Below, in pieces: positions 11,195-45,266 of a stretch of DNA of 64,000 bases. Each line of letters opens with the position of its first letter. The first letter of the stretch is position 1. Both the position numbers and the translations under genes were made by a program. The notes below the pieces were generated by a model. That model was not told the origin of the DNA. It ran no database searches and saw only the letters and a program-made list of their open reading frames with translations. The stretch comes from Candidatus Binatia bacterium (GTDB taxonomy: Bacteria > Desulfobacterota > Binatia > UBA9968 > JAJDTQ01): contig OY762897.2 in NCBI GenBank assembly GCA_963666515.2, positions 3,355,912-3,419,911 on the forward strand. Reading direction: 5' to 3'.

Positions 11195-11283
11195 CCGGGC
11201 GTCCTCGCGGTGTAGTGGACCGACCCGCCGGTCGCCCCTACCCGCTACGACTGGATTACTTGGACAGGCTGCAGGCTGGCACC

Positions 11284-12369
11284 ATGACCCTGATCCTCAC
11301 CAACGAGGAGATCGAGAGCTGCTTCACCCTGGAGGAATGCTTCAGGGTGTTGGAGCCCGCGTTCATCGACCTGGGCAACGGCGCCGCCGCGAACCTGCCG
11401 CGCCAGGACCTGCTGGTGCCCGGGCCGCTGGAGGGCAGCTACCACGGCCTCAAGTCCGCCGGCGGGGCGATGCCACGGTTCGGCGTCACTGCCGCCCGGC
11501 TGACGTCCGACATCGTCACTTGGCCGGAGGTGGACGGCGAGCGGCGCCGGGTCAAGGTGCCGCTGGCCATGGGCAGCAAGTACGTGGGCTTGGTGTTCCT
11601 GTTCAGTACCGCCACCGGCGAGTTGCTGGCCATCTTTCCCGACGGCCTGGTCCAGGCCATCCGCGTTGGCGTCACCAACGCCTTGTCCGCCAAGTACATG
11701 GCGCGCCCGGAATCGTCGGTCCTGGCACTCTACGGCTCCGGCTGGCAGGCCCGGTCCGGACTGCTGTCCATGTGCACGGCCATGCCCATCCGCGAGGTGC
11801 GGGTCTACAGCCCCACGGAGGAGCACCGCTGGACCTTCGCTCGTGAAATGGACGGCCGGGTGGAGGCCCAGGTGAGCGCGGTGGACCTTCCCGAGCGCGC
11901 GGCGGAGGGAGCCGACATCGTGCTCCTCACCACCAACGCCCTGAAACCCTTTTTCCCGGCGGAGTGGGTCCGCGACGGCATGCACATCGCCACCGTCCGC
12001 TCCAGCGAGATGACCGTGGACGCGCTGCTGCGTTGCGACCGGCTGGTGGTGTCGAGCCGGGAAGCGGCCCGGCTGGTGACGCTGCCCGGTGAGGAGGAAC
12101 GTATCCCCGAAGCGGGTCAGGGCGACTACCGGCGCGAGGAGTTGGAGGACACCGAAGCCGACTGGAGCAAGAAACCGGAGTTGGGAGAAATCATGGCTGG
12201 GAAGGTAACAGGCAGGGAACGCGGGGCAGAGGTAACCTGCATGCTCAACTACGTCGGCCTCGGGCTCCAGTTCGCTGCCGCCGGAGCTCGGATTTACGAG
12301 CTGGCCAGGGAGCGCGGCCTCGGACGGGAGCTGCCCACCGAATGGTTCTCGCAGGACCTGCACTCGTAA
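11284..12369 (+). CDS. ornithine cyclodeaminase/mu-crystallin family protein
   Basis: The recognisable protein begins at MTLILTNEEIESC (ATG at 11284), within the 3' part of ORF 10360..12369. ALYGSGWQA Rossmann region. Confidence 0.8.
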   Translation: MTLILTNEEIESCFTLEECFRVLEPAFIDLGNGAAANLPRQDLLVPGPLEGSYHGLKSAGGAMPRFGVTAARLTSDIVTWPEVDGERRRVKVPLAMGSKYVGLVFLFSTATGELLAIFPDGLVQAIRVGVTNALSAKYMARPESSVLALYGSGWQARSGLLSMCTAMPIREVRVYSPTEEHRWTFAREMDGRVEAQVSAVDLPERAAEGADIVLLTTNALKPFFPAEWVRDGMHIATVRSSEMTVDALLRCDRLVVSSREAARLVTLPGEEERIPEAGQGDYRREELEDTEADWSKKPELGEIMAGKVTGRERGAEVTCMLNYVGLGLQFAAAGARIYELARERGLGRELPTEWFSQDLHS

Positions 12370-12419
12370 GCCCCGACGCATGACGGGCCTGCCGCGCAAT
12401 GCCGCACTATGCTTCCGAC

Positions 12420-12827
12420 CTACGGGAAGAAGATCAGCTTCACCAGCAGCGCGACGATGGCCGGTTGGAAAGTGAAGACCGCCAGCTTGAGCACGGCGAC
12501 ACTCTTATCGAGCTTGGCGATGTCTTCTCTCATGGATTTCTCCAACCTTGCCATGTCCTCCTTGGTGGACAACTCCAGCCTTGCCATGGCCTCCTTTGTG
12601 GATAACTCCAGCCTTGCGATGTTCGCCTTCGTCGCATTCTCCAAGTCGGACATGTCTGACCTGAGCACGTGCTCCAGTTTGGCAACATCTTGCTCCAATC
12701 TGGAAATGTCTTCCTTGGTAGCGAGGCGATCACCGTGCGGGATCGCGGCTGCCGCCGCCTTGGCCTTCTCCTTGGAAGCTCCAGCTTCGACCAGCGCCTC
12801 GTAGACTTCCAGAACAATCACAGTCAT
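12420..12827 (-). CDS. DUF1640-like coiled-coil protein with C-terminal membrane anchor
   Basis: 11-aa repeats (RLELSTKEAMA / RLELSTKEDMA / RLEKSMREDIA) followed by the hydrophobic tail LAVFTFQPAIVALLVKLIFF. Start choice (M18 of the ORF) is uncertain. Confidence 0.55.
   Translation of the reverse strand: MTVIVLEVYEALVEAGASKEKAKAAAAAIPHGDRLATKEDISRLEQDVAKLEHVLRSDMSDLENATKANIARLELSTKEAMARLELSTKEDMARLEKSMREDIAKLDKSVAVLKLAVFTFQPAIVALLVKLIFFP
12540..12638. repeat. 33-bp tandem repeat (about 3 units) inside the DUF1640-like gene
   Basis: CTCCA(A/G)CCTTGCCATG(T/G)CCTCCTT(G/T)GTGGA(C/T)AA at 12540-12572 and 12573-12605, with a third, degenerate unit following. Confidence 0.6.
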
Positions 12828-13038
12828 GGCTCCATCCCGGCCAACTCCAGCCATTGTAGTTCGATAATTCAAAAACACAACCTCGATGCAAAGACAGTCT
12901 CCGAGCGCAACGGACGGGCACTGTCCTCATAGTCATGAATCGGCACTCCCGTACCGTTCTTTAGCCCAGAGCGTTCTTTTTCCGGCGGGAGCCGGATTCG
13001 TAACGACGTCCACGCCGGGCAGCGTCGCCGGGTTGGGC

Positions 13039-15206: not shown

Positions 15207-17507
15207 ATGGACGTCGATCCCATCCGCTACGAGATGTTTCTGCACCGCCTGTGGGCGGTGGGCGAGGAGGGGCGCTCCACCCTCCAGCGCGTCACCGCCT
15301 CGCCCATCGTGGCCCAGGGCGGCGAGGTCATGAGCTCGTTCTACGACGCCGAGGGCAAGATGGTGCTGGCCTGCTCCGGCCACCTGCGGTTCGCCGCCGC
15401 CACCTCGGACGCCATCAAGTACCTCATCGAGTGGTACGGCGAGTCGCCGGGGTTCCACGACGGCGACCAGCTCTTCTTCAACGACCCCTACGTGGCCGGC
15501 TCCCACACCTACGACATGATGGTGATCAAGCCCATCTTCCTGGACGGGCGCCTGATCGCCTGGATCGCCACCAGCACCCACACCGCGGACACCGGCGGGG
15601 TGCTGCGGGGCGCGGCCCTGGAGATCTTCCACGAGGGCATCCGTATCCTGGGGGTCAAGGTGGTGGAGCGGGGCGAGTTCCGCGAGGACGTGTTCCGCAC
15701 CCTCACCGAGCAGTGCCGGGACCCGCAGTACGTGGGGCTTGACATCAAGGCCATGATCGCGGGCAACAACGTGTGCGCTTCCCGCTACCTGAGTCTGGTG
15801 GAGAAGTTCGGCCTGGAGTTCATCGAGGCGGCGGGGGAGAAGACGCTGGCGGACGCCGAGGAGATGGCGCGCGCCAAGCTGCGCTCGCTGCCCGACGGCG
15901 TCTGGCGCTCGCGGGTCTACTACTCCGCGCGCGAGGCCGACCAGTCCGACGCCGACATCATCGCCGTCATCTGCGCCGTCACCAAGAAGGGTGACTCCCT
16001 GGACATCGACCTCGACGGCACCAGCCCCCAGACCTCCGGGGACACCAACTCGACCCTGCCGAGCACGGTGGCGCACCTGAACATCGCGCTCACCAACCAG
16101 CTCTTCTGGGACGTCCCGTGGAACGACGGCAAGCTGGCGCCCATCCGCATGAGGGTGCCCGAAGGCTCGGTGCTGAACTGCACCTTCCCCGCGGCCTGCG
16201 GCTTGGCGCCCATGATCGGCGGCATGTTCGTGGCCGCGGTCAGCGAGTGCCTGGCCAAGATGCTCTATGCCGCCGGACGGAAGGACGACGTAAACGCCGG
16301 CTGGTTCGGCGCCTGGTACTCGGGCGGCCCGGGCTTCATGTACGGCGGCCACAACCGGGAGGGGCTGGCCAACGCCCAGGGGCTCTACGACGTGCACGGC
16401 GGCGGCCTCGGCGCCACCCCGGACCGGGACGGCGTGAACACCGGCGGCCACATGAACATCCCGTCCGGCGGCATCTCCGACATCGAGCGCATCGAGATGC
16501 AGTACCCGTTCATCTACCTGGCGCGCAGGCACGTGAAGGACGGCTCGGGCTTCGGCAAGCATCGCGGCGGCTACGGCAGCGAGCGGCTGCTGTTCGTCTA
16601 CGGCTCCGCCGACGTTTCCGCCAACTACCGCCCCTACGGCGCGGTGCCCAACGGCTTCGGGCTGTTCGGCGGCTATCCCGCGGGCTTCGGCGGCAACCGG
16701 GCGCTTTACCGCACCGAGGGCCTGCTGGAGCGCCTGCGCGAGGGCGCCTACCCCACGGGCGCCGACGAGCTGCAGGGCCTGGACTGGTGCCGGCTGGACC
16801 TGCCCGAGGGCTTCCGGCCGCGGGTGCCGATCCCCGAGATGACCTTCGTCACCGACGTCACCCAGAGCGGCGGCGGGTTCGGCGACCCGCTGGAGCGGGA
16901 CCCCGCGCAGGTGGAGCGTGACGTCCGCACCGGCCGTACCAGCGCCGACGTAGCCGACCGGATCTACGGCGTCAGGCTCGACGGCGACGGCCGGGTGGAC
17001 GCCGCCGCCACCGCGGAGCGGCGGGAGGAACTGCGGGCCGAGCGGCTGGCCCGGGGGTCCCGTCCCGCCGGCGACGCCGGTGACGGCAGCGCCAAGGGCC
17101 TCGCCGGTGCCTCGATTTCCGCAATCGACCCAGGCGCTCCGGCCGTCGCGGCCGGCGCCCGCGCAACCGGCGCGGAGGTCATTCTGCACGTGCACGAGTA
17201 CCTCGATCTGGTCAGGGCCGGAGGCCGCCTCGTGGTGTGCTGCCGCAAGTGCGCCCGCGTGTTCTGCGACGGCGGGGAGAACTACAAGCGCGGCGCCGTC
17301 GAGATCACCATGGACCTGGAAGAAGTGGCCGGCCAGCGCGTCCCCTCCGGCGAGCCCTATCGCGGCGTGCTGCTGGGCTATGTCTGTCCCGGTTGTGCCA
17401 CGCTGCTGCAGGTCGACGTCTTCTGCCCCACCCGCGACGACCAGCGGCCCCTCTGGGACATCCAGCTCGACTGCTCGACGTTCGCGTCGAGTCCCCCCAA
17501 TTTGTGA
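15207..17507 (+). CDS. hydantoinase B/oxoprolinase family protein with a C-terminal acetone-carboxylase-gamma-like Cys4 zinc domain
   Basis: HyuB-type N-terminus (DPIRYEMFLHRL, NDPYVAGSHTYD). The C-terminal roughly 110 aa contain CCRKC...YVCPGCATLLQVDV. Confidence 0.8.
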   Translation: MDVDPIRYEMFLHRLWAVGEEGRSTLQRVTASPIVAQGGEVMSSFYDAEGKMVLACSGHLRFAAATSDAIKYLIEWYGESPGFHDGDQLFFNDPYVAGSHTYDMMVIKPIFLDGRLIAWIATSTHTADTGGVLRGAALEIFHEGIRILGVKVVERGEFREDVFRTLTEQCRDPQYVGLDIKAMIAGNNVCASRYLSLVEKFGLEFIEAAGEKTLADAEEMARAKLRSLPDGVWRSRVYYSAREADQSDADIIAVICAVTKKGDSLDIDLDGTSPQTSGDTNSTLPSTVAHLNIALTNQLFWDVPWNDGKLAPIRMRVPEGSVLNCTFPAACGLAPMIGGMFVAAVSECLAKMLYAAGRKDDVNAGWFGAWYSGGPGFMYGGHNREGLANAQGLYDVHGGGLGATPDRDGVNTGGHMNIPSGGISDIERIEMQYPFIYLARRHVKDGSGFGKHRGGYGSERLLFVYGSADVSANYRPYGAVPNGFGLFGGYPAGFGGNRALYRTEGLLERLREGAYPTGADELQGLDWCRLDLPEGFRPRVPIPEMTFVTDVTQSGGGFGDPLERDPAQVERDVRTGRTSADVADRIYGVRLDGDGRVDAAATAERREELRAERLARGSRPAGDAGDGSAKGLAGASISAIDPGAPAVAAGARATGAEVILHVHEYLDLVRAGGRLVVCCRKCARVFCDGGENYKRGAVEITMDLEEVAGQRVPSGEPYRGVLLGYVCPGCATLLQVDVFCPTRDDQRPLWDIQLDCSTFASSPPNL

Positions 17508-21787: not shown

Positions 21788-24700
21788 ATGACCTTCTACG
21801 CCGACCTGCACGTCCACTCCCGGTTCTCCCGCGCCACCAGCCGGAACCTGGACCTGGAGCACTTGGCCGTCTGGGCTCGCAAGAAGGGCATCGGCGTGGT
21901 GGGCACCGGCGACTTCACCCATCCGGCGTGGCGGGCCGAGTTGAAGGAGCAGCTCGTGCCGGCGGAGCCCGGGCTGTTCCGGTTGCGCGCCGACCTGGAG
22001 CGGGCGGTCGAGCGGCAGCTTCCGCCGGCCTGCGCCGGCGGCCTCGCCGCGGTGCGGTTCATGCTGTCGGTGGAGATCTCCACCATCTACAAGAAGGGCG
22101 ACAAGACCCGGAAGATACACCACCTGGTCTACTGTCCGGACTTCGACTCGGCCGACCGGCTGGTGGCCGCCCTCTCCCGCATCGGCAACCTGCACTCGGA
22201 CGGGCGGCCGATCCTGGGGCTGGACTCCCGGCACCTGCTGGAGATGACGCTGGAGTCGGGTCCGGGCTCGTACCTGGTGCCGGCGCACGTGTGGACCCCG
22301 TGGTTCGCCGCGCTGGGCTCCAAGTCCGGCTTCGACGCCGTGGACGACTGCTACGGGGACTTGGCGCCGCACATCTTCGCGGTGGAGACGGGGCTCTCGT
22401 CCGACCCGCCCATGAACTGGCGGGTGTCGTCCCTGGACCGCTTCCGGCTCATGTCCAACTCCGACGCCCACTCGCCCGAGAAGCTGGGGCGGGAGGTGTG
22501 CGTCTTCCACACCGAGATGGACTACTTTGCGTTGCGCCGGGCGCTGGAGACGGGCGAGGGCTATGGCGGCACCCTGGAGTTCTTTCCGGAAGAGGGCAAG
22601 TACCATCTCGACGGCCACCGCAACTGCAACGTCCGCCTGGAGCCGGACGAGACCCGCGGGCTCGACGGCCGCTGCCCGGCCTGCGGCAAGCCGCTGACCG
22701 TGGGGGTGATGCACCGGGTGGAGGACCTGGCCGACCGGGCTCACGACGAGGCGCCGCCGGACACCGCGGGGGACACCCGCGGGCTGATCCCGCTGCCGGA
22801 AATCCTGGGTGAGATCCACCGCGTGGGCCCCAAGAGCAAGCGGGTCGCGCAGGACTACGAAGGGCTGCTGGCGCGGCTCGGACCGGAGCTGCAACTCCTG
22901 AACAGCGTGCCGCTGGAAGACATCGGTCCGGTCGCGCCGTCGCTGGTGGCCGAGGCGGTGGCGCGTCTGCGGCGGCGGGAAGTGATCCGGGAGGCCGGCT
23001 ACGACGGCGTGTACGGCACCATCCGCCTGTTCCGGGACGCCGAGCTGGAGCGGCGGAGCCGGGGGGCGTCGCTGTTCGGGGAGGAGACCGCGGGATCGGC
23101 GACGGCTCAGGCCGCTCCGAGTGGGATGGATTCCGGCCAGGAGATCCCCCGTCCCGGAGTCGAAGCGCCGGAACGGGCCGCTCGGGCGCATGAACCGGCG
23201 GCGGACGATCCCGCGATTGCGCGCCGGGAGCCGCTCGATCCCGGTTCCGCACCCGCACCCCACCCGGCTGATGAGCGCCGGGACGGCGGCTCACCGGGAC
23301 AACTGTCGCTCCCCGCCGACCTGTCCCCCGGCGGCCGCGATCTCCTGGCCGGCCTGGACGCGGATCAGCGACGCGCGGCGGAGATCGTCGACGGACCCTT
23401 GCTGATCGTAGCCGGTCCCGGATCGGGGAAGACCCGGACCCTGACCCGCCGCATCGCCCACCTCGTCACGAACCACGGCGCGTCCCCGTCCGGCTGTCTT
23501 GCCGTCACCTTCACCCGCCGGGCCGCGGACGAGATGCGGAGCCGTCTGCGTGAGCTCCTGCCGGACGCATGGGCCGACATCCCGCTGCACACCTTCCATT
23601 CCCTAGGCTTGGACATCCTCCGGGAGCACTGGAACGCCGCGGGGTTGCAACGGGGTTTCCGGGTTGCCTCGGAGGCCGAGCGGCTTCGGCTGCTGCGGGA
23701 CGCGCTGGGGATCTCCGAGCGGCAGGCCCGCGCGCGCCAGTCGGCCATCTCCCAGGGCAAGCGGACCGGCGCGCCGTCCGCGGACGAGAAGCTCGCGCAG
23801 GCGTGGGAGGCCTACCGGCACGAGATGGAAACACGCAACTGGTGCGACTTCGACGACCTGGTCATCCGGGCTGCGGATGCCCTGGAACGCGACCCCGGAG
23901 TCCGCGAACAGGTGCGGCAACGGTATCCGTGGGTCTGCATCGACGAGTACCAGGACGTGGACGAGCAGCAGGTCCGGTTGATCAGGCAGATCGTCCCTCC
24001 CGACGGGAACATCTGCGCCATCGGCGACCCCGACCAAGCCATCTACGGCTTCCGGGGCGCAGACCGCCGGTTCTTCTCCGAGTTTACCGAACACTTTCCG
24101 GGCGCCCATGTGGTGCGGCTCAGCCGCAACTATCGCTCCAACTCCAACATCGTCACCCTCTCCTCGCAGGTCATGGCCGTAGCGGCCTCGGCCGGACCTT
24201 CCATCCCGGTGCTCGACGACGACCCCGACCGCGTCACCCTGCACGAAGCCCCGAGCGAGAAGGCCGAGGCCGAGTTCATCGTGCAGTCCCTGGAGCAGGC
24301 GCTGGGCGGCCACAGCTTCTTCTCCATCGACAGCGGCCGATCGACCGAGGCCCTGGGCCACGATCTCTCGTTCTCCGATTTTGCAGTACTCTACCGCACC
24401 GAGGCCCAGGCCGCGGCACTGGTGGAGGCGCTCCAGCGCTCCGGCATGCCCTGCCAGCAGCGCTCCCACAACCCGCTGCTGGATCATCCCGGCGTCGCCG
24501 CACTGGTGGAGGCATTGGGCCGCGCCCCGGACACCGGCTCGGTGCGCAGGCGCCTCGAAGCCGCCGGCATGGACGGCGAACCGCCGGAAGCCTGCGAGCT
24601 GCTGAAACCGCTGGCCGACGCCTGCGGCGACGACCTGGAGCGCTTCCTTTCCGAACTGGCCCTGGGCAGCCAGGTGGACACCTGGGACCCGCGCGCCGAC

Positions 24701-25039
24701 CGGATCTCGTTGCTGACCCTCCACGCCGCCAAGGGGCTCGAATTCCCCGTCGTCTTCATCGTGGGATGCGAGGACGGCGTGCTCCCCCTGACGTGGGGCA
24801 AGGCGGATCCGGACGACCTCGCCGAAGAGCGGCGCCTGTTCTACGTCGGCGTCACCCGCGCCATGAGCAAGCTCTACCTGTGCCGCGCCCGCAAGCGGCT
24901 CTGGCGCGGAAAGGTCCGCGAGCTGCCTGCTTCTCCTTTCCTCGCCGACATCGAGCAGCGGCTCCTGGAACGAAGCCGTGCGCGCCCCGCCGGACCGAGG
25001 ACACGGGAGCAGAACAGCCAGTTGGACCTGTTCAAGTAG
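21788..25039 (+). CDS. EndoQ-like PHP-domain nuclease (TIGR00375-type) fused through a low-complexity linker to a UvrD/PcrA-type helicase
   Basis: N-terminus YADLHVHSRFSRATS plus the zinc ribbon CPACGKPLTVGVMHRVEDL. After about 120 aa of Pro/Ala/Arg linker come AGPGSGKT (Walker A), IDEYQDVD and a LTLHAAKGLEFPVVF...YVGVTRA helicase C-terminus. Starts 6 nt after the tctA stop. Confidence 0.8.
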   Translation: MTFYADLHVHSRFSRATSRNLDLEHLAVWARKKGIGVVGTGDFTHPAWRAELKEQLVPAEPGLFRLRADLERAVERQLPPACAGGLAAVRFMLSVEISTIYKKGDKTRKIHHLVYCPDFDSADRLVAALSRIGNLHSDGRPILGLDSRHLLEMTLESGPGSYLVPAHVWTPWFAALGSKSGFDAVDDCYGDLAPHIFAVETGLSSDPPMNWRVSSLDRFRLMSNSDAHSPEKLGREVCVFHTEMDYFALRRALETGEGYGGTLEFFPEEGKYHLDGHRNCNVRLEPDETRGLDGRCPACGKPLTVGVMHRVEDLADRAHDEAPPDTAGDTRGLIPLPEILGEIHRVGPKSKRVAQDYEGLLARLGPELQLLNSVPLEDIGPVAPSLVAEAVARLRRREVIREAGYDGVYGTIRLFRDAELERRSRGASLFGEETAGSATAQAAPSGMDSGQEIPRPGVEAPERAARAHEPAADDPAIARREPLDPGSAPAPHPADERRDGGSPGQLSLPADLSPGGRDLLAGLDADQRRAAEIVDGPLLIVAGPGSGKTRTLTRRIAHLVTNHGASPSGCLAVTFTRRAADEMRSRLRELLPDAWADIPLHTFHSLGLDILREHWNAAGLQRGFRVASEAERLRLLRDALGISERQARARQSAISQGKRTGAPSADEKLAQAWEAYRHEMETRNWCDFDDLVIRAADALERDPGVREQVRQRYPWVCIDEYQDVDEQQVRLIRQIVPPDGNICAIGDPDQAIYGFRGADRRFFSEFTEHFPGAHVVRLSRNYRSNSNIVTLSSQVMAVAASAGPSIPVLDDDPDRVTLHEAPSEKAEAEFIVQSLEQALGGHSFFSIDSGRSTEALGHDLSFSDFAVLYRTEAQAAALVEALQRSGMPCQQRSHNPLLDHPGVAALVEALGRAPDTGSVRRRLEAAGMDGEPPEACELLKPLADACGDDLERFLSELALGSQVDTWDPRADRISLLTLHAAKGLEFPVVFIVGCEDGVLPLTWGKADPDDLAEERRLFYVGVTRAMSKLYLCRARKRLWRGKVRELPASPFLADIEQRLLERSRARPAGPRTREQNSQLDLFK

Positions 25040-25168: not shown

Positions 25169-25651
25169 ATGCACGCACTCAGAATGGCCCTTGTGGGCCT
25201 CGTTGCCTTGACGCTGGCCCTTGCCGGCTGCTCTGCCAACCCCGGGAAGAAGGAAGCCGTTGGAACGTTGCTGGGCGCCATCGGCGGCGGGGTCGCCGGT
25301 GCGCAAGTAGGCAAGGGGCGCGGAAAACTCGTCGCCACGGGCATCGGCACGCTCCTCGGCGCGGCCATCGGCAACGAGATCGGCAAGTCCCTGGATCGCG
25401 CCGACCGTCTGGCCATGCAGCGCACCAACCAGCAATCGCTGGAAACGGCAAAAACCGGCACCACCAGCACCTGGAAAAACCCCGATTCCGGCAACCAGGG
25501 CACGATCACGCCGAAGAAAACTTACAAGAAGCCGGACGGAACCTACTGCCGTGAGTTCCAGCAGACCGTTACGATCGGCGGCCGTACCGAGGAAGCCTAC
25601 GGCACCGCCTGCCGCCAGCCCGACGGGAGCTGGAAGCTCGTCTCGACGTAG
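25169..25651 (+). CDS. glycine-zipper lipoprotein (17-kDa surface antigen/SlyB-like) with a C-terminal surface-antigen-type domain
   Basis: Lipobox LALAGC, glycine zipper GAIGGGVAGAQVG...GIGTLLGAAIG, and a C-terminal YCREF...GTACRQPDGSW block. Confidence 0.7.
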   Translation: MHALRMALVGLVALTLALAGCSANPGKKEAVGTLLGAIGGGVAGAQVGKGRGKLVATGIGTLLGAAIGNEIGKSLDRADRLAMQRTNQQSLETAKTGTTSTWKNPDSGNQGTITPKKTYKKPDGTYCREFQQTVTIGGRTEEAYGTACRQPDGSWKLVST

Positions 25652-25654
25652 GCC

Positions 25655-26308
25655 GTGCCGCCCCCCGTTTCGCCCAATATCTACCACATCGCGCATGTCG
25701 ATCGGCTGCCGTCGATAATCACAGACGGCTACCTCTGGTGCGATGAAGAGATGACGCGACGAACCGAGGCCCAAGCCGACGTAGGCACGGCGATCGGAAT
25801 GAGCAGCATCAAGCAGAGGCGGTTGACTGAACTCTCGCTCGACAGCCATCCGGGCCTCTACGTGGGGCAGTGTGTGCCCTTCTACTTCTGCCCGCGTTCG
25901 GTCATGCTCTACGTGATCCACCGTGCAAGCCGTGACGAGCTTTCCTATCGTGGTGGGCAAGGTCCCATATTACATCTCGAAGCCGACTTGCAGGACGCTG
26001 TTCACTGGGCTGACTCCAACAAGCGTCGCTGGGCGTTCACGCTGTCGAACGCAGGAGCGTATTACTTCGAGGACCGTGCGGACTTGGCGCAACTGGTGTT
26101 TTCCAGCCGCCAACGCCGCCCGGACTTCTGTATAGAAGCGTTGCGAGCTGACGCCGACGCGCCTGACCAACTCCCAAGGAAACGAGCGCTCCAATAGGAA
26201 TTCCGCCTGTTTCGGTTCCTTGCAGTTTTGCCAATATTGAGCGTTGATGGCCGCCCAATCGAGTTCGTCCAGCCGCATCTTGCGATAATGCCGGGATGGT
26301 ACTACTGA
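25655..26308 (+). pseudogene. darT: darT (DUF4433 ssDNA thymidine ADP-ribosyltransferase toxin), disrupted by an internal 174-bp inversion. As it stands, the ORF ends at 26197.
   Basis: N-terminal DarT blocks are on the plus strand; the C-terminal block containing KQAEFL is on the minus strand at 26269..26096. Re-inversion restores a 217-aa ORF ending WYY-TGA at 26306-26308. Confidence 0.8.
26096..26269. other. inverted 174-bp (58-codon) segment within darT
   Basis: Both junctions fall on codon boundaries in the darT frame that starts at 25655. Junction microhomology is only CTG (26093-26095) / CAG (26270-26272). Confidence 0.8.
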
Positions 26309-26324
26309 CGGGCGGAAGGTAAAG

Positions 26325-27392
26325 ATGCTCGAATTCAAGACGGGCGACATTCTCGCTGAAGACGCGGACGCCTTGGTGAACACGGTGAACTGCGTGGGGG
26401 TGATGGGGCGTGGGATCGCGCTCCAGTTCAAGAATGCCTTCCCTGAGAATTTCAAGGCCTACGCCGATGCCTGTAAGCGTCACGAGGTAGAACCGGGCCG
26501 TATGTTCGTGTTCCAGACCGGCCAACTGACCAACCCGCGCTACATCATCAATTTCCCGACCAAGCGCCACTGGCGCGGAAAGAGCCGGATGGAAGACATC
26601 GACGCAGGGCTGAAGGCGCTACGGGAGGTGATCCGTGAGAATGGCATCCACTCCATTGCCATTCCTCCACTTGGCAGCGGCCTGGGTGGACTGAACTGGG
26701 GCAATGTGCGCTCCAGGATCGAAGAAGCGTTAAGAGATTTCGAAGACTTGCGCATCGTGGTATTCGAACCCGGCGAGGCGCCGAAGACTCAACAGATGCC
26801 CAAGCACCGGTCGGCGCCTGAGATGACGCCCGGTCGCGCGGCGCTTGTGGGGCTGATGGACCGCTATCTTGGGGGTCTTCTCGACCCGTCCGTGACCCTG
26901 CTCGAAGTCCATAAGTTGATGTATTTCATGAAGATCAGTGGAGAACCCGCTATGGACAAGCTCCGGGTGGTAAAGGGTCTCTACGGTCCTTACGCGGAGA
27001 ATCTGACCCATGTGCTTCGTGAGGTTGAGGGATATTTCATCTCGGGTTATCGGGACGGGGGCGACCAGCCTGAAAAGCAGATTGAACTGGTGCCGGGCGC
27101 AGTCGCCGACGCCGACGCATTCCTGGAGAAACATCCCGACACGCGCACCCGATTCGACCGCGTAGCCGATCTGGTCGCAGGCTTCGAGTCATCTTTTGGC
27201 CTCGAGCTTCTGTCGACTGTGCATTGGGTCATCACACAGGAATCTGCCAGCAATCTGGACGACCTGATCTCGCGCGTCTATGGCTGGAATGATCGCAAAA
27301 AGCAATTCTCGGCTCGCCAGATCGGCTTGGCTGCCGATGTCCTGGCGAAAAAGGGCTGGGTCGAACCTCTCCTCTCCGCTTCTGACTCATGA
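26325..27392 (+). CDS. darG: darG antitoxin (N-terminal macrodomain ADP-ribosylglycohydrolase plus DarT-binding C-terminal domain)
   Basis: Macrodomain blocks ADALVNTVNCVGVMGRGIALQF and IAIPPLGSGLGGL. 355 aa, located 16 nt after the restored darT stop. Confidence 0.85.
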   Translation: MLEFKTGDILAEDADALVNTVNCVGVMGRGIALQFKNAFPENFKAYADACKRHEVEPGRMFVFQTGQLTNPRYIINFPTKRHWRGKSRMEDIDAGLKALREVIRENGIHSIAIPPLGSGLGGLNWGNVRSRIEEALRDFEDLRIVVFEPGEAPKTQQMPKHRSAPEMTPGRAALVGLMDRYLGGLLDPSVTLLEVHKLMYFMKISGEPAMDKLRVVKGLYGPYAENLTHVLREVEGYFISGYRDGGDQPEKQIELVPGAVADADAFLEKHPDTRTRFDRVADLVAGFESSFGLELLSTVHWVITQESASNLDDLISRVYGWNDRKKQFSARQIGLAADVLAKKGWVEPLLSASDS

Positions 27393-27404
27393 CCACCGAC
27401 ACCT

Positions 27405-27442
27405 CCGAACGCCGCCTACGACGGCGTGGGCTGGGCGTTCGG
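27405..27442. terminator. candidate bidirectional hairpin between the convergent darG and tctB-like genes
   Basis: CCGAACGCC (27405-27413) pairs perfectly with GGCGTTCGG (27434-27442). There is no U-tract, so its function is uncertain. Confidence 0.3.
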
Positions 27443-27463
27443 CCCCGCTGATCGGAAGCCCGC

Positions 27464-27979
27464 TTACAGCCCCACCGCCTTCCACACCACCCCCTCGTGC
27501 AGGGGCGCGCCCATGACGACGATGAAGACGACGTAGACGAACGCCCAGGTGACCGCGGTGATGGAGAGGGTCATGAGCCAGCTCTCGGAGGAGCGGAGGC
27601 GCAGGAACAGGATGAGGAACAGGGGGATGGCCACGAGGTAGCCCAGGAAGTAGATCAGCGCAATCAGCAGCAGCAGCCAGGCGGCGAAGTTGAGTTCGCG
27701 GCGGTAGACGGCGCTGGAGGAGCCGGTCTCCTCGGAGGGTTCGGCGGCGCGGCCGGTATCGATGCCGAAGAGGTCGTATTCCTGCAGGAAGCTGAAGCGG
27801 CGGGCGACCGCGGGAACCATGTCGATCAGAAGCTGGAGCAGGGTGAGCAGCAGCGTGGGGACGGCGATGATGAGCGGCACCAGCCGGGCCCTCGGCTGGT
27901 AGTCCAGGGACAGAACCAGGAAGCCCAGGACCAGGACGAAGACCGCGAGAGTGAAAAGGGTCCTGTCGTTCAGCCTCAC
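27464..27979 (-). CDS. small 4-TM membrane protein, TctB-like
   Basis: 171 aa with four hydrophobic helices and a size/topology typical of TctB. Call rests on topology and context only. Confidence 0.45.
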   Translation of the reverse strand: MRLNDRTLFTLAVFVLVLGFLVLSLDYQPRARLVPLIIAVPTLLLTLLQLLIDMVPAVARRFSFLQEYDLFGIDTGRAAEPSEETGSSSAVYRRELNFAAWLLLLIALIYFLGYLVAIPLFLILFLRLRSSESWLMTLSITAVTWAFVYVVFIVVMGAPLHEGVVWKAVGL

Positions 27980-28013
27980 GGGTGCACCTTACGCCTGACC
28001 GAGGCCGCGTCCA

Positions 28014-29474
28014 TCAGGCGTCCCTCTGCTCCAGCCGCAACGACAGGTCGTCCCGCCGGATATGGACCTGCCGGAGTTCCCGAGCGCCCGCGAGTTGCTT
28101 CAGGAGGACCGAGACCGGACGGCGGGCATCGAGAAACTCCCTGGGCGCGCCGGCGGCCAGCATCTCCTTGACGGAATCCGGGCCTGCGACGACCCGGATC
28201 ACCAGTTCCTCGTCCGAGACTCCCGGGCCGCCGAACTTCCGCCTTACTTCATCGAGGGAGGGCTCGGGCCAAGTCCAGCTTTCCCATTCCCGCGCCCGCG
28301 GTCGGCTCAGGATCTTGTCCTTGACCCCCGGGTCCATGAGCCGCGCACCCTCCTCGCCCCAATATCCCAGAGCATACTGAATGCTCTGGTCGGTGACCTC
28401 CTTGTAGCGTTCCCCGGCCATGACGTTGACGGCCGCCTGGGTGCCCACGAACTGGGCCAGCGGCGTCACCATGATGGGATAGCCGTACTCCTCGCGCACG
28501 CGGCCCGCCTCCTCCAGGGTCTCCTCAAGCCTGTCGCCCATGCCCACGGTTTCGAGTTGAAAGCGCAGGTTGGAGATCATGCCGCCGGGCACCTGGTGCT
28601 GGTATTGGGCGTAATCGTATTCACGGGGCGCGCCGAAGGGAAAGTTCTCCTGCCGGGCGACGCGGGTGAAGTGCTCCTCCACCGGCCTCACCGCCTCCAG
28701 GTCCACCATCGGCGTGAAGCCCAAGGCCTCGGCATTGGCCGCCACGTTGAAGATGGAGGGCTGCGACGAGCCGTTGGCAAGGGGCGGAATGGCGGTGTGG
28801 AGCGTCTTGACCCCCAGCTTGAGGGCTTCGACGTAGTTGAACGGCGCGAGGCTGTTGTTGCAGTGGGCGTGGAACTCCAGCGGGATGTCGCCGACGTTGG
28901 CCATGACGAGCTGGAGCATCTCCCGGGTGCGGTCGGGCGTCAGCAGCCCGCCCACGTCCTTGAAGCAGATCCGGTAGGGGTGCAGCGCCGCCAACTCGCG
29001 GGTCTTCCGCTCGTAGTACTCGTTGGTGTGCTTGGGCGAGACCGAGTAGATGATGTTGCCCACCACCTCCATGCCCCTGTTTCCCAGAAACTCCAGCTCC
29101 TTGGCGAGCACGTTGTAGTCGTTCCACGGGTTCGACGAGCGCGTGAGGGTGATGCCGTGGGCGATGACGCATTCCAGCAGGAGGCGGCGGATGCACGGGG
29201 GAATGGGCTCGAAGCCGGAGCCGATGCCGCCGTGATAGCGCAGCCGGGTCCTGGAAAATTGCTTCACCCCCAACCGCACCCAGTCCCAGGGGTTCTCCTT
29301 CAACTCCCGCACCTGCTTGATGATGCTGGCGAAGCCGAAGAATTCCATGGACTCGAAGCCGCAGCGGTCCATCTGTTGGGCGGCGCCGAGCATGTGGCCG
29401 ATGCGCATGCGCAAGGCCCACAGGCTCAAATGCCCGTCCCTCAAGGTGGTGTCGACAAAACGTATCTCGCTCAT
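28014..29474 (-). CDS. carboxyltransferase (pyruvate carboxylase subunit B/oxaloacetate decarboxylase alpha-like), without a biotinyl domain
   Basis: IRFVDTTLRDGHLSLWA and FKDVGGLLTP blocks plus the PYC_OADA-like middle region. No biotin attachment motif (A/E-M-K-M) is present at the C-terminus. Confidence 0.8.
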   Translation of the reverse strand: MSEIRFVDTTLRDGHLSLWALRMRIGHMLGAAQQMDRCGFESMEFFGFASIIKQVRELKENPWDWVRLGVKQFSRTRLRYHGGIGSGFEPIPPCIRRLLLECVIAHGITLTRSSNPWNDYNVLAKELEFLGNRGMEVVGNIIYSVSPKHTNEYYERKTRELAALHPYRICFKDVGGLLTPDRTREMLQLVMANVGDIPLEFHAHCNNSLAPFNYVEALKLGVKTLHTAIPPLANGSSQPSIFNVAANAEALGFTPMVDLEAVRPVEEHFTRVARQENFPFGAPREYDYAQYQHQVPGGMISNLRFQLETVGMGDRLEETLEEAGRVREEYGYPIMVTPLAQFVGTQAAVNVMAGERYKEVTDQSIQYALGYWGEEGARLMDPGVKDKILSRPRAREWESWTWPEPSLDEVRRKFGGPGVSDEELVIRVVAGPDSVKEMLAAGAPREFLDARRPVSVLLKQLAGARELRQVHIRRDDLSLRLEQRDA

Positions 29475-34660: not shown

Positions 34661-35668
34661 ATGGCACGGCCGCTACGGATCGAATTCCCGCACGCGCACT
34701 ACCACGTCACCTGCCGCGGCAATGACCGGCGGCGGATCTTCGGGGATGACGACGACCGGCATGCCTTCCTGGAAAGGCTGCGCAGGTCGCTGGATATCTA
34801 CGAGGTTAAGCTGCACTGCTACGTGCTGATGAACAACCACTTCCACCTCGTGGCGGATACTCCCAGGGGCAATCTCTCCGAGTTCATGCGGCACTTCAAC
34901 GTAGCCTACACGTCGTATTTCAACCGGCGCCACCGCCGCACGGGCCATCTCTACCAAGGGCGCTTCAAGGCGATCCTGATCCAGCCCGATGCCTGGCTGC
35001 TGGAGTTGAGCCGGTACGTTCACATGAATCCGGTGCGGACGCCCCGGCTCAGGCGGGGCATGGCCCCGGACCAGGTGCGGCAACTGTGGCAGTACCCCTG
35101 GAGCAGCCTGGGCGGATACGTTTCCGTGCGGCGCCGAAAGCCGTGGGTCCACTATGACGAGGTGTTGTCGCGGACAGGTGATTCCCGGCAGCAGTACGGC
35201 CGGTTCGTCCAGGACGGGTTGGAGCAGGGCGTGACGAGTCCGTGGAAGCAAGTGCGCGGGCAGGTGGTCCTGGGCGATGACCGCTTCTGGACCGGCGTCA
35301 GGGAGCAGTGGGCCGGCGCTGCCGGCAGCGCCGCGGTGCGGGAACTCCCGCTGCCCGCGGCAAGGATGGACCCCGCCCGAATCACCGCGGAGGCAGCGAG
35401 GTACTTCAACCTGGCGCCCGAACGGCTTCGGCGCAAGCGGGGCCGCTGCCGGGACCAGCGGGGTGTATTGATGGAGCTGCTGTACCGCCACGGCGGCATG
35501 ACCCAGCAGGCCATCGGCGCCCACCTCGGCGGCCTGGACTACACCGCGGTGAGTCACGAGCGGCGCCGGGCGCGGGAGCGCATGGCGCAGAACGAGGTGA
35601 TGGCAGGGTGGTGGCTCGATCTGGATTCCGCGCTCGGATCCGCTGACCGGCAAAGCGTCAACCGTTAA
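34661..35668 (+). CDS. Y1 (IS200/IS605-type, RAYT-like) transposase-domain protein with a C-terminal DnaA-type HTH
   Basis: HYHVTCRGN, the HUH motif NHFHLV and catalytic-Tyr context GHLYQGRF. The C-terminus (GMTQQAIGAHLGGLDYTAVSH) resembles the DnaA C-terminal HTH. No terminal repeats are seen next to the gene. Confidence 0.7.
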   Translation: MARPLRIEFPHAHYHVTCRGNDRRRIFGDDDDRHAFLERLRRSLDIYEVKLHCYVLMNNHFHLVADTPRGNLSEFMRHFNVAYTSYFNRRHRRTGHLYQGRFKAILIQPDAWLLELSRYVHMNPVRTPRLRRGMAPDQVRQLWQYPWSSLGGYVSVRRRKPWVHYDEVLSRTGDSRQQYGRFVQDGLEQGVTSPWKQVRGQVVLGDDRFWTGVREQWAGAAGSAAVRELPLPAARMDPARITAEAARYFNLAPERLRRKRGRCRDQRGVLMELLYRHGGMTQQAIGAHLGGLDYTAVSHERRRARERMAQNEVMAGWWLDLDSALGSADRQSVNR

Positions 35669-39052: not shown

Positions 39053-40231
39053 CTAGTTCGCGGTGAAAAGGGTTGCCTGGCCGGCCGGGACCTGAAGCGG
39101 CCCGTCCGAAGCAAACGGATCGGCAGCCTGTTTGGGGAGGCGCAGCTTCCGGCGAATTTCCGCCACGGTTGGAGACGCCTCGTAGTGGCGGCCCCGTCTT
39201 TCGCCTTTTGCCACGATAAGGTCCGTGTCCACCAGGACCTTCAGGTCACGGCTGGCGAGGTTGTTCGACACGTCTGCGCTCACTCGATATGACGAGTTCC
39301 TCACCTTGCTGCCGAATGCAGCCTGGAGCAGCGCCATGGCCGTGCGCTCGGGAAGGCCCCTGGACTCCACCAGGTTGAGAAGCTCTGCATAGACTCTCTC
39401 CAGCTCCCGCGTCCGGCGAAGAAGTGTCTGTGCCTGCAGGTAGTGGCCGCTCAGGCAGAAGCGCACCCATGGTTTGGCATCGCGCCGCGGGTTCCATCCG
39501 CCGCCGCCCACCGCCGCCAGCACATGGTAGTACTCCTGTTGATTGTGACCGATATACTCCTCGATTGAGGAAAACGCTGGCGCGACAATCCCGTCGCCCG
39601 CCAGCACCGCGGTCTGGATGCACCTGGCCGTGCGGCCATTGCCATCCGTAAACGGATGCAGCAGCGCCAGGTTCAGATGCGCCATCGCCGCGCGGAGGAA
39701 TACGGAATCGACGTCCTCATCGTTTACATAGTCCAGAAGCTCGCGGATCAGCGGCTCCAGTTGGTCACGGTCCACCCCCTCGTGCACGACGTCACCGGTC
39801 TTGGTGTTTCTGACACCAACCCACCCGGGACGGTACTGACCCGGATGTGCCTGCAGATCCGACTGGCAGATCATGAAGTGGACCGCCAGGAGCACGTCTT
39901 CCGTGATCCTGAAGGACGCGCTCTTCCGGCGCTGGAGGGTGTAGTCCATGGCTTCACGGTAACCGACAACGGCCCGCCACGTCTCGCGGTCGGTGCTCGC
40001 GGGGTCTTCGCCGTCAATCGCGGCGATGGCATCCTCATCAGACACATGGATGCCCTCCACACTGTTGGAGGCCATGAGCGCCCGGGCCCGGGTCATGCGG
40101 GCCAACAGGCCGGTCCAACGACGCGGTTCGGTGACGACGTAGTTGCGTAGATCAGCCCGTATGCGGGCCGTGGCAGCCTCTACTCGCTTCTCGTCGTCAT
40201 CCAGTGCAGAATACGTGTACAGCATGATCAT
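39053..40231 (-). CDS. Fic-family protein (class II, N-terminal inhibitory motif) with a C-terminal winged-helix-like region
   Basis: Fic motif HPFTDGNGRTAR, N-terminal S-x-x-x-E-G (SNSVEG), 393 aa from the ATG at 40231. The remaining ORF up to 41278 is antisense to the next gene. Confidence 0.85.
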   Translation of the reverse strand: MIMLYTYSALDDDEKRVEAATARIRADLRNYVVTEPRRWTGLLARMTRARALMASNSVEGIHVSDEDAIAAIDGEDPASTDRETWRAVVGYREAMDYTLQRRKSASFRITEDVLLAVHFMICQSDLQAHPGQYRPGWVGVRNTKTGDVVHEGVDRDQLEPLIRELLDYVNDEDVDSVFLRAAMAHLNLALLHPFTDGNGRTARCIQTAVLAGDGIVAPAFSSIEEYIGHNQQEYYHVLAAVGGGGWNPRRDAKPWVRFCLSGHYLQAQTLLRRTRELERVYAELLNLVESRGLPERTAMALLQAAFGSKVRNSSYRVSADVSNNLASRDLKVLVDTDLIVAKGERRGRHYEASPTVAEIRRKLRLPKQAADPFASDGPLQVPAGQATLFTAN

Positions 40232-40235
40232 ATGT

Positions 40236-40290
40236 AATTGACAACTGATTTCAAGACAGTTAATAACCGTCGTAAGGTCAGTTGTCAATT
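40236..40290. promoter_or_regulatory. 13-bp perfect inverted repeat carrying two overlapping sigma70-like promoters between fic and the TAXI-like gene
   Basis: AATTGACAACTGA (40236-40248) / TCAGTTGTCAATT (40278-40290). Plus strand: TTGACA(40238)-17 nt-TAATAA(40261). Minus strand: TTGACA(40288..40283)-17 nt-TATTAA(40265..40260). Confidence 0.5.
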
Positions 40291-40327
40291 GTATATGGGG
40301 CCGTCCACCCGCAAGGAGAACCATCAC

Positions 40328-41320: not shown

Positions 41321-41352
41321 GGCATCCCGATAGTTTGATCTGTTATGGGAGG

Positions 41353-44022: not shown

Positions 44023-44342
44023 TGCGTCCCGCGGCGGTCGAGCTCCGCCTGGGCGAAAAAAGCCGCCGCCTTGCGCAATATCTCGTTCGCACGACGTAGC
44101 TCCCGGTTCTCTCGTTCCAGCGCCCTCAGCCGCTCTCCCCCTTCGCTCTTCTGCCCCGGCCCCTCACCCGCTTCGCCCTCCGCCCGCCGCACCCACTTGC
44201 GCAACGTCTCCGCGGTGCAGCCAAGCTTCGACGCCACCGACACGATCGCCGCCCACTGCGATCCGTATCCCGCCTCGTGCTCCAACACCATCCGAACCGC
44301 CCTCTCCCGGACCTCCGGTGAATACCTCGTCGACTTGTTCAT
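43881..44342 (-). CDS. IS3 OrfA (HTH transposase subunit)
   Basis: [19 protein letters not shown]...[30 protein letters not shown]. The slippery TTTTTTC lies at about 44049-44055 on the plus strand (read there as GAAAAAA). Confidence 0.8.
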
Positions 44343-44538
44343 GACCCCATCCTCTCAAAGAATAGAGTCTCCGGTAAACCCGGGGCGGTTCACCCGAGTG
44401 TATTGAGACGGCAATCACCTGACCGTCCGGCCTTCGGCGCGAGATGAGCGGCCGGTGTCAGGTGAATACCCTATCTGTACATCCCGATACATCAGCCGCT
44501 TGCCAACCATGCCAGCGGCCACCTCTCACACAAAACAG

Positions 44539-45219: not shown

Positions 45220-45266
45220 AGGGGGGATTGGGGCAGGGTGGTGTTCAAGGCACAACAAACAGCGGT

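What the first reader, a model, noticed from the sequence alone, without database searches (positions are those of the whole stretch)
26096..26269. darT toxin gene is split by an exact, in-frame 174-bp inversion that carries the catalytic motif, while darG is intact
What the plus strand shows:
- ORF 25655..26197 reads as the N-terminal two-thirds of a DUF4433/DarT ADP-ribosyltransferase (IYHIAHVDRLPSI, VPFYFCPRSVMLY, AFTLSNAGAYYFEDRADLAQL).
- It then degenerates into nonsense (VFSSRQRRPDF...).

Where the missing piece is:
- The missing C-terminal block is DELDWAAINAQYWQNCKEPKQAEFLLERSFPWELVRRVGVSSQRFYTEVRAALAAGKH.
- It is encoded on the opposite strand at 26269..26096, buried inside the spurious ORF 25970..26455.

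What re-inversion gives:
- Flipping exactly 26096..26269 (58 codons, both junctions on codon boundaries) joins ...LAQL to DELDW....
- It also joins ...AAGKH to QPHLAIMPGWYY-TGA (26306-26308).
- The result is an uninterrupted 217-aa DarT with the family-typical WYY end, 16 nt upstream of the darG ATG.

Why it matters:
- The flipped piece contains KQAEFL, the motif that carries the catalytic glutamate in characterised DarT (E160 in Thermus DarT).
- In the present orientation the toxin is therefore dead while the macrodomain antitoxin is whole.

Mechanism:
- Only CTG/CAG microhomology (imperfect GCAACTG/CAGCCGC) sits at the junctions, and no invertase gene is nearby. This does not look like a classical invertase switch.
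- Possible explanations are a fixed toxin-inactivating rearrangement, a population-level ON/OFF inversion of a toxin gene, or an assembly or editing artefact.
Basis: partly seen in the sequence, partly recalled or inferred. Interest (0 to 1): 0.85.

Follow-up and report, generated by a model that had tools for sequence, protein, structure and literature searches.

The report
Toxin gene darT broken by small inversion
In this bacterial chromosome (probably Candidatus Binatia) the DNA-modifying toxin gene darT has been switched off by a flipped 174-180 bp piece that holds its catalytic residue, while the antidote gene darG is intact; it looks like an ordinary one-off mutation, not a programmed switch.

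Summary
Window 25655-26197 (+) encodes DarT profile positions 1-124 of 201. The opposite strand of 26096-26269 encodes positions 122-194. Flipping that segment gives a 217-aa DarT that matches Pfam, NCBIfam, PADLOC and Thermus DarT end to end. darG (26325-27392) is intact.

The window's own 180-aa product is in the public protein database, so the inversion is in the deposited 4.66-Mb contig.

All syntenic relatives examined carry the collinear orientation. These are a 99%-identical Logan contig and the orthologous locus in four Candidatus Binatia loci. The window state is therefore derived, and it is recent: no further damage has accumulated.

The junctions share only 4 bp (CTGG/CCAG; 6 of 8 when extended). 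No site-specific recombinase was found among the ORFs scanned in the 64 kb. In the ancestral orientation a perfect 8-bp hairpin straddles one breakpoint.

The closest Binatia genome lost darT by a different mutation, a 386-nt deletion, yet keeps darG under purifying selection.

Best reading: a spontaneous inversion mediated by microhomology and a hairpin that killed the toxin. A reversible population switch or an assembly error cannot be excluded without reads. Interest is modest.

The parts
25655..26095 (+). darT 5' part, residues 1-147 (GTG start), in its original orientation
   Evidence: Pfam PF14487 positions 1-124/201 and NCBIfam toxin_DarT 1-128/204. 99.4% identical to L081 1-500.
26096..26269 (-). 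Inverted darT segment, residues 148-205 (DELDW...AAGKH). It includes the catalytic Glu E170 (codon 26203..26201). Breakpoints are ambiguous within 26093-26097 and 26268-26272.
   Evidence: The minus-strand ORF matches PF14487 positions 122-194/201. L081 497-676 aligns in reverse to 26272..26093 at 99.4%. L001, L002, L003 and L006 also align in reverse here.
26270..26308 (+). darT 3' end, residues 206-217 (QPHLAIMPGWYY) plus TGA, in its original orientation but no longer translated
   Evidence: Translation. Aligns to the C-terminus of Thermus DarT.
26195..26197 (+). Premature TAG that ends the as-encoded 180-aa product (147 DarT residues plus 33 antisense-derived residues)
26093..26096 (.). Left junction microhomology CTGG, part of the 8-mer GCAACTGG at 26089-26096
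   Evidence: Breakpoint-equivalence test. The 4-nt overlaps between the blastn segments agree.
26269..26272 (.). Right junction microhomology CCAG, the first 4 nt of CCAGCCGC at 26269-26276
26097..26110 (.). Displaced half of the ancestral hairpin: loop TGTTTT (26097-26102) plus arm CCAGCCGC (26103-26110). In the restored orientation, GCGGCTGG-AAAACA-CCAGCCGC forms a perfect 8-bp stem across the right breakpoint.
   Evidence: Hairpin scan: 26 such hairpins in 64 kb, covering 0.74% of positions, and one lies at the breakpoint. DNA fold -10.7 kcal/mol; 11 of 200 shuffles fold as well. Present in L081, one mismatch in L001, absent from other DarT genes.
26325..27392 (+). darG antitoxin, 355 aa, intact: macrodomain plus the C-terminal region that full-length DarG homologues share
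   Evidence: Pfam Macro 18-129. NCBIfam antitoxin_DarG 461.8 bits against a cut-off of 250. PADLOC DarG 1-328/329.

Best explanation
**What it is.** This is a chromosomal DarTG2-type toxin-antitoxin cassette. DarT is an ssDNA thymidine ADP-ribosyltransferase and DarG is a macrodomain glycohydrolase. The toxin gene has been knocked out by a recent, spontaneous, balanced inversion of 174-180 bp.

**How it arose (inferred).** The exchange took place between two 4-bp inverted microhomologies, CTGG and CCAG. Extended, these are GCAACTGG against the reverse complement of CCAGCCGC, a 6 of 8 match. One of them is the first four bases of the 3' arm of a perfect 8-bp hairpin in the ancestral gene. The likely route is replication template switching or illegitimate break-and-join at that hairpin. 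A site-specific recombinase is unlikely.

**Consequences.** The inversion removes the catalytic-Glu block (E170, equivalent to Thermus E160) from the reading frame. Translation stops after 33 nonsense residues, so no active toxin can be made. darG keeps its own ribosome-binding site and stays intact. Such a mutant is tolerated or favoured because losing the toxin carries no addiction penalty.

**Shown:** the anatomy, the polarity (derived state), the lack of extended repeats or recombinases, and recurrent darT loss in relatives.

**Inferred:** the mutational mechanism, and that the inversion is fixed in the sampled population.
For: - **Anatomy.**
- **In the public record.** The inverted state is in the deposited genome: P0056, 180 aa, on a 4,663,458-bp contig.
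- **Near-identical relative.** The 99%-identical relative P0001 on contig L081 is collinear. Only L081 497-676 aligns in reverse, to 26272..26093.
- **Syntenic Binatia loci.** L001, L002, L003 and L006 share the layout lipoprotein gene | darTG | tctB. All have the opposite, collinear orientation of this segment.
- **No other inverted copy.** None of the 81 loci shows a reverse-strand DarT match, and 70 hold an intact single-HSP darT.
- **Recent event.** The restored gene differs from L081 darT at only 4 nt and has no stops or frameshifts.
- **Junctions.** They share a 4-bp exact repeat, 6 of 8 when extended. Similarity over +/-20 bp is no better than random.
- **Hairpin.** A perfect hairpin sits at the ancestral right breakpoint. 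Such hairpins cover 0.74% of positions, so the rough chance of this for two junctions is about 0.015.
- **No recombinase.** No invertase or integrase was found among the ORFs scanned in the window. The mobile-element genes found were an IS3 DDE transposase at 43-44 kb and a Y1-type domain protein at 34.7 kb.
- **Independent loss.** L001 and L003 share a 386-nt frameshifting deletion of darT next to full-length darG. darG dN/dS between them is 0.16 at dS 0.29.
- **Background decay.** About 8 of 81 DarG-anchored loci have a broken darT.
- **Not a general feature of the assembly.** A codon-composition scan detected 53 of 60 simulated 174-bp inversions. It found no convincing second case in host genes of the window.
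- **Loss of function.** E160A abolishes Thermus DarT toxicity (PMC5179494).
Against: - No reads are available, so fixation, heterogeneity and misassembly cannot be told apart directly.
- The restored gene is pristine. That fits a very recent event, but it would equally fit a reversible switch.
- The hairpin association is a single observation with modest statistics (fold z = -1.9).
- The template-switch mechanism is inferred from junction anatomy only.
- Some darT frameshifts in comparison loci may be long-read errors, which would inflate the apparent frequency of toxin decay.
Confidence: 0.7

Rival explanations
1. Reversible, population-level ON/OFF switch: an intragenic inverton of the premature-stop type. 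The segment flips back and forth, giving subpopulations with and without active DarT, and the assembly captured the OFF state.
For: - Both orientations exist in nature in near-identical sequence: the window is OFF and L081 is ON.
- The inverted gene shows no secondary decay.
- Intragenic invertons that introduce premature stops are documented (Chanin et al., bioRxiv 10.1101/2023.03.11.532203).
Against: - The ON and OFF sequences come from different strains, about 5% diverged just downstream, not from one population.
- The flanking inverted repeat is only 4 bp exact (6 of 8). Published invertons are predicted from flanking inverted repeats found with einverted; the thiC example has 11 bp.
- No invertase or tyrosine recombinase was found among the ORFs scanned in the 64 kb.
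- The junction motif and hairpin are lineage-specific, not conserved among DarT genes.
- None of the 80 other DarG-anchored loci, nor any of the 120 closest DarT proteins listed, shows the inverted form.
Confidence: 0.08
2. Assembly or sequencing artefact: the organism's real darT is collinear, and the inversion arose in a read or consensus step.
For: - The source is a metagenome-assembled chromosome with a single record.
- A hairpin at one breakpoint could in principle provoke polymerase template switching in vitro as well as in vivo.
- No independent assembly with the inverted junction was found. Both searches were uninformative, however: the protein search did not recover the window's own product, and the species is absent from the metagenome collection.
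Against: - The event is a clean, balanced, two-junction inversion with no base lost or gained. From my own knowledge, known chimera artefacts give single junctions or fold-backs, and consensus polishing removes events carried by a single read.
- A 4-8 bp repeat is far below any assembler k-mer size.
- The scan found no other micro-inversion in host genes of the window.
- The one event hits precisely a toxin gene. That class is expected to be inactivated, and it was independently inactivated in the nearest relative.
Confidence: 0.15

Closest known systems
DarTG2 toxin-antitoxin / phage-defence system (Thermus aquaticus, M. tuberculosis, EPEC; Jankevicius et al. 2016, PMC5179494; Schuller et al. 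2023, PMC11543638)
   Same: - The gene pair and order are the same: darT immediately upstream of darG.
- The restored DarT is an end-to-end equivalog match with the conserved catalytic Glu.
- DarG has the macrodomain plus a C-terminal region.

   Different: - As encoded here, the toxin is interrupted and lacks the catalytic block.
- The locus is therefore a DarG-only remnant in functional terms.
- Activity was not tested.
Intragenic invertons, premature-stop type (Chanin et al., 'Intragenic DNA inversions expand bacterial coding capacity', 10.1101/2023.03.11.532203)
   Same: A short inversion lying entirely inside a coding sequence. In one orientation it truncates the protein between functional parts.
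   Different: - Those elements are predicted from flanking inverted repeats (11 bp in thiC) and attributed to invertases.
- Both orientations are detected within one strain.
- Here the repeat is 4 bp exact, no recombinase gene was found in the window, and only one orientation is seen per genome.
Spontaneous inversions between short inverted repeats, and quasi-palindrome template switching in bacteria
   Same: A balanced inversion whose junctions lie in very short inverted homologies, next to a hairpin-forming sequence. It looks recombinase-independent.
   Different: - As I recall, the experimentally characterised cases used somewhat longer repeats (about 12-23 bp).
- Here the homology is 4 bp exact, or 8 bp with two positions that would be G-T mispairs in a template-switch intermediate.
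- The mechanism is inferred, not demonstrated.
Toxin pseudogenisation with retained ('orphan') antitoxin in chromosomal TA loci
   Same: - The toxin is inactivated and the antitoxin ORF is preserved.
- The same outcome occurs at the orthologous locus in L001 and L003 by a 386-nt deletion, with darG dN/dS of 0.16.
   Different: The inactivating lesion here is an inversion. It leaves every codon intact and is in principle revertible, unlike a deletion or frameshift.

Membership tests
DarT (PF14487 / NCBIfam NF048013 toxin_DarT) | Full-length match to the family profile above the curated cut-off | tested here: not met
   - As encoded (180 aa): NF048013 scores 140.3 bits against a cut-off of 150, covering positions 1-128/204. 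Pfam covers 1-124/201.
- After in-silico re-inversion the feature is met: 226 bits over 1-204/204, and Pfam 191.6 bits over 1-201/201.
- The locus is therefore a disrupted darT, not a functional member.
DarT (PF14487 / NCBIfam NF048013 toxin_DarT) | Conserved catalytic glutamate (Thermus E160) in frame with the N-terminal NAD-binding part | tested here: not met
   - The Glu codon (26203..26201) lies on the opposite strand inside the inverted segment.
- E160A is non-toxic in Thermus DarT (PMC5179494).
DarT (PF14487 / NCBIfam NF048013 toxin_DarT) | ssDNA thymidine ADP-ribosylation activity and toxicity relieved by DarG | not testable with these tools
   This needs expression of the restored and the as-encoded alleles, with and without darG.
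DarG antitoxin (NF048014; macrodomain plus C-terminal domain) | Full-length equivalog match, with a macrodomain containing the catalytic Lys motif | tested here: met
   - NF048014 scores 461.8 bits against a cut-off of 250, covering 1-338/338.
- Pfam Macro covers residues 18-129.
- The FPTKRHW motif is present in the translation. I take it to correspond to Thermus K80 (PMC5179494); no residue-level alignment to Thermus DarG was made here.
DarTG2 operon | darT directly upstream of a macrodomain darG, rather than a NADAR antitoxin | tested here: met
   - There are 16 nt between the restored darT stop and the darG ATG.
- The macrodomain antitoxin defines DarTG2 (PMC11543638).
Intragenic inverton (programmed, recombinase-mediated) | Flanking inverted repeats of recombinase-site length (about 10 bp or more) | tested here: not met
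   - The repeat is 4 bp exact, 6 of 8 when extended.
- Similarity over +/-20 bp is no better than random pairs: 11 of 40 matches against a random mean of 15.1.
Intragenic inverton (programmed, recombinase-mediated) | An invertase or site-specific recombinase encoded in the genome, usually nearby | tested here: inconclusive
   - None was found among the ORFs scanned in the 64-kb window.
- The rest of the 4.66-Mb genome is not available.
Intragenic inverton (programmed, recombinase-mediated) | Both orientations present within one strain or population | not testable with these tools
   - No reads are available.
- The only ON copy (L081) comes from a different strain, about 5% diverged downstream.
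Microhomology or short-inverted-repeat mediated spontaneous inversion | Balanced inversion with short inverted homology at both junctions and no gain or loss of bases | tested here: met
   - Five equivalent breakpoint pairs give the identical restored sequence.
- The blastn segments overlap by 4 nt at each junction.

The most novel reading that the evidence does not exclude
The inversion may not be a dead end. It could be a recurrent, reversible flip of a toxin's catalytic module at the hairpin GCGGCTGG-AAAACA-CCAGCCGC, working without a canonical recombinase site.

One version of this idea: the flip is triggered by DarT's own lesion. The hairpin loop reads TGTTTT on the complementary strand, a T-rich single-stranded target of the kind DarT enzymes modify. 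Fork stalling there would drive template switching and give a self-limiting ON-to-OFF (and rarely OFF-to-ON) toggle of a DNA-damaging toxin.

Nothing in the sequence excludes this. Nothing beyond the hairpin position and the undamaged state of the inverted gene supports it.
Probability: 0.06. Interest if true: 0.8.

Novelty: new member of a known kind. Interest (0 to 1): 0.3.

Why it matters
It is a clean natural example of how a chromosomal toxin-antitoxin or defence cassette is disarmed. A sub-200-bp inversion at a 4-bp microhomology beside a hairpin leaves every codon intact but takes the catalytic glutamate out of frame.

The nearest genome lost the same toxin by deletion yet keeps darG under purifying selection (dN/dS 0.16). 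Together these suggest that DarG has value without its cognate DarT in this lineage.

For annotation, such loci will be called as a 'short DarT' plus a spurious antisense ORF. Defence-system finders would therefore miscount them as complete DarTG.

It does not open a new mechanism unless read data show that both orientations coexist.

Tried and rejected
1. **Exact-protein contig look-ups.** Look-ups for the window's DarG, the 180-aa product and P0056 found nothing on record. The source record and its sequencing technology could not be identified.
2. **Search for other inverted alleles.** A protein search with the junction-plus-tail peptide found no candidates. It also failed to recover the window's own product P0056, so it is uninformative.
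3. **Metagenome scans.** Exact-DNA scans of JGI metagenome contigs for the inverted junction, and for an orientation-neutral flank, both gave 0 hits. The species is absent there, so these are uninformative too.
4. **Extended inverted repeats or recombinase sites at the junctions.** None were found. The 21-nt, 76% inverted repeat at 26069-26089/26108-26128 spans only the left junction. In the ancestral orientation it would be an imperfect direct repeat, and I judged it to be chance.
5. **'In-frame, on codon boundaries' as a sign of design.** Rejected. The breakpoints are ambiguous over 5 positions, and any inversion preserves the frame.
6. **Family-wide conservation of the hairpin.** Rejected. 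It is present only in the window, in L081 and nearly in L001.
7. **Codon-composition scan for further micro-inversions.** There were two weak candidates (12337-12624 and 17077-17232). The second lies inside an uninterrupted 768-aa ORF with intact Pfam matches. Neither was convincing. The scan is insensitive inside the darTG cassette itself because its codon usage is atypical.
8. **Y1-type transposase-like gene (34661-35668) as the agent.** It is below the NCBIfam cut-off (68.9 against 80 bits). From my own knowledge, no Y1 enzyme is known to make balanced inversions. I did not pursue it.

Full report
**1. The observation**

- ORF 25655..26197 (+) encodes 147 residues of DarT, then 33 unrelated residues and a TAG at 26195-26197.
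- Pfam places this product on DarT profile positions 1-124 of 201.
- The overlapping minus-strand ORF 25970..26455 matches positions 122-194 of the same profile (E 6e-14). The two strands therefore carry complementary parts of one gene.

Reverse-complementing 26096..26269 gives a 654-nt ORF with a 217-aa product.
- It matches Pfam DarT 1-201/201 (191.6 bits) and NCBIfam toxin_DarT 1-204/204 (226 bits, cut-off 150).
- It matches PADLOC DarT, and the solved Thermus DarT from residue 7 to the terminal WYY.
- The as-encoded product falls below the NCBIfam cut-off (140.3 bits).

The flipped block contains KQAEFL, which aligns with KQAAFL of the crystallised Thermus protein. That chain has Ala at the aligned position; I read it as the E160A mutant. 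E160A abolishes toxicity (PMC5179494). The Glu is E170 here, at codon 26203..26201 on the minus strand.

darG (26325..27392) is a full-length equivalog (461.8 bits, cut-off 250). It lies 16 nt downstream of the restored darT stop.

**2. Details that needed correction**

The breakpoints are not unique. Five pairs, from 26093/26272 to 26097/26268, restore the same sequence. The cause is a 4-bp inverted microhomology: CTGG at 26093-26096 and CCAG at 26269-26272. 'Exact', 'in-frame' and 'on codon boundaries' are thus properties of any inversion plus a choice of representation, not signs of design.

**3. Is it in the real record, and which state is derived?**

- The 180-aa product is present in the public protein collection as a protein of a 4,663,458-bp contig (P0056). 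The inversion is therefore in the deposited genome and is unlikely to be an edit of the window.
- The best hit of the restored protein is P0001 (99% identity, 217 aa, intact). It lies on a 3.4-kb Logan contig from SRR23145504 with the same neighbours: darG, tctB and a carboxylase gene.
- blastn shows this contig (L081) is collinear with the window, except that L081 497-676 aligns in reverse to 26272..26093 at 99.4%.
- The locus is orthologous in several Candidatus Binatia loci. L001, L002, L003 and L006 share the layout 17-kDa lipoprotein gene | darTG | tctB. In all of them the segment has the collinear orientation.
- None of 81 DarG-anchored loci shows a reverse-strand DarT match, and 70 have an intact single-HSP darT.
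- The window's orientation is therefore derived. It is also recent: the restored gene differs from L081 darT at four nucleotides and has no secondary lesions.

**4. Mechanism**

*No programmed switch is visible.*
- Beyond CTGG/CCAG the junction sites match at only 6 of 8 positions (GCAACTGG against the reverse complement of CCAGCCGC). Over +/-20 bp they are no more similar than random pairs.
- Pfam scans of the ORFs called across the 64-kb window found no serine or tyrosine site-specific recombinase; a few short ORFs gave no match.
- The mobile-element genes found were an IS3 orfA/orfB at 43.1-44.3 kb and a Y1-domain/DnaA_C protein at 34.7 kb.

*A hairpin sits at one breakpoint.*
- In the ancestral orientation the right breakpoint lies inside a perfect hairpin, GCGGCTGG-AAAACA-CCAGCCGC. 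It encodes AAGKHQPH.
- The crossover CCAG is the first four bases of its 3' arm.
- Only 26 such hairpins occur in the 64 kb, covering 0.74% of positions.
- As DNA it folds at -10.7 kcal/mol; 11 of 200 shuffles fold as well.
- It is lineage-specific, not a conserved feature of DarT genes.

*Inference.* I infer a spontaneous event, either a double template switch or a break-and-join between the short inverted homologies, promoted by the hairpin. In a template-switch intermediate, the nascent 3' end GCGGCTGG could pair with the complement of GCAACTGG through six Watson-Crick and two G-T pairs. This is inference from anatomy, not demonstrated.

**5. Why a toxin gene?**

- darT decay next to an intact darG recurs. 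The nearest genome (L001, DarG 90% identical) and a second contig of the same MAG (L003) share a 386-nt frameshifting deletion inside darT at the orthologous locus.
- Their darG genes are full length and differ with dN/dS of 0.16 at dS 0.29. This indicates purifying selection on darG after the toxin was lost.
- About eight of 81 loci have a frameshifted or deleted darT. Some may be long-read errors.
- A codon-composition scan detected 53 of 60 simulated 174-bp inversions in host genes. It found no convincing second micro-inversion in the window.
- The single event thus sits in the class of gene most expected to be inactivated. That argues for biology over random assembly error.

**6. Rivals**

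- **Programmed, reversible intragenic inverton** (Chanin et al.). It fails the flanking-repeat criterion, and no recombinase was found in the window. The ON and OFF copies also come from different strains, with divergence stepping from about 0.5% to about 5% within darG. It cannot be excluded without reads. I give it about 0.08.
- **Assembly artefact.** It is disfavoured by the clean balanced two-junction structure, by the repeat being far shorter than assembler k-mers, and by the points in section 5. I give it about 0.15.
- **Searches for independent inverted alleles** were uninformative. The peptide search did not recover even the window's own protein, and the species is absent from the JGI metagenome contigs.

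**7. Comparison with known systems and verdict**

The cassette is a DarTG2-type system, with a macrodomain antitoxin (PMC11543638), and its toxin is a fresh pseudogene. It works like any toxin-inactivated TA remnant. It is not a functional member of DarT as encoded. It resembles premature-stop intragenic invertons in outcome but not in machinery.

Novelty is low to moderate: a new instance of known phenomena, namely toxin pseudogenisation and short-homology inversion. The neat junction anatomy and the side observation that orphan darG is conserved add some value.

Interest is 0.3. The most novel reading still open is a recombinase-independent, hairpin-driven and possibly DarT-lesion-triggered reversible flip. 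I give it about 0.06.

Noticed in passing
window 25597-28968 compared with L081: Divergence between the window and the Logan contig steps from about 0.5% to about 5%. The low part covers darT and the first ~300 nt of darG. The high part covers the rest of darG and the downstream tctB and carboxylase genes. This suggests recent recombination or exchange of the toxin-proximal part of the cassette between strains.
   Followed up: partly
L001 7723-7981 and L003 810-1068: The nearest Candidatus Binatia MAG carries, on two contigs, the same 386-nt frameshifting internal deletion of darT at the orthologous locus. darG is intact on both, with dN/dS 0.16 and dS 0.29 between the two copies. This points to an orphan DarG kept under purifying selection.
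   Followed up: partly
window 25655-27392: The darTG cassette has a GC3 of about 0.71, against about 0.9 for flanking host genes. Yet it occupies the same chromosomal slot in several Binatia genomes that differ by 12-20% in nucleotide sequence. It looks like an old acquisition that has not ameliorated. L002, L006 and L001 have extra DNA (6.4, 1.9 and 0.5 kb) between the lipoprotein gene and darT.
   Followed up: partly
L023, L025, L031, L052, L065, L072: darT is frameshifted next to a full-length darG in six further genomes from diverse phyla. Some of these are long-read MAGs, so sequencing errors are possible.
   Followed up: no
window 34661-35668 (+): A 335-aa protein with an N-terminal Y1 (IS200-like / REP-type tyrosine transposase) domain fused to a DnaA C-terminal helix-turn-helix. 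It scores below the NCBIfam REP_Tyr_transpos cut-off, 68.9 against 80 bits.
   Followed up: partly
window 39053-46049: A lower-GC3 island. It holds a 741-aa Fic-domain protein (39056-41278), a DUF4238 protein (41356-42297), IS3-family orfA/orfB (43117-44342) and a 260-aa ORF with no Pfam match (45270-46049).
   Followed up: no
window 52233-57953 (+): A 1906-aa protein with UvrA DNA-binding and interaction domains and several ABC ATPase modules. It is roughly double the length of canonical UvrA.
   Followed up: no
window 21788-25039 (+): A 1083-aa UvrD-family helicase with an N-terminal extension of about 500 aa that has no Pfam hit. The extension begins with a PHP-like motif (FYADLHVHSRFS; the resemblance is from my own knowledge). 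It lies two genes upstream of darTG, before the lipoprotein gene.
   Followed up: no
window 12337-12624 and 11037-12420: A region with weak or ambiguous coding signal and a low-GC3 152-aa ORF (12420-12878, minus strand) with no Pfam match. The codon-composition scan flagged it as a strand switch, but it does not interrupt any recognisable gene.
   Followed up: no
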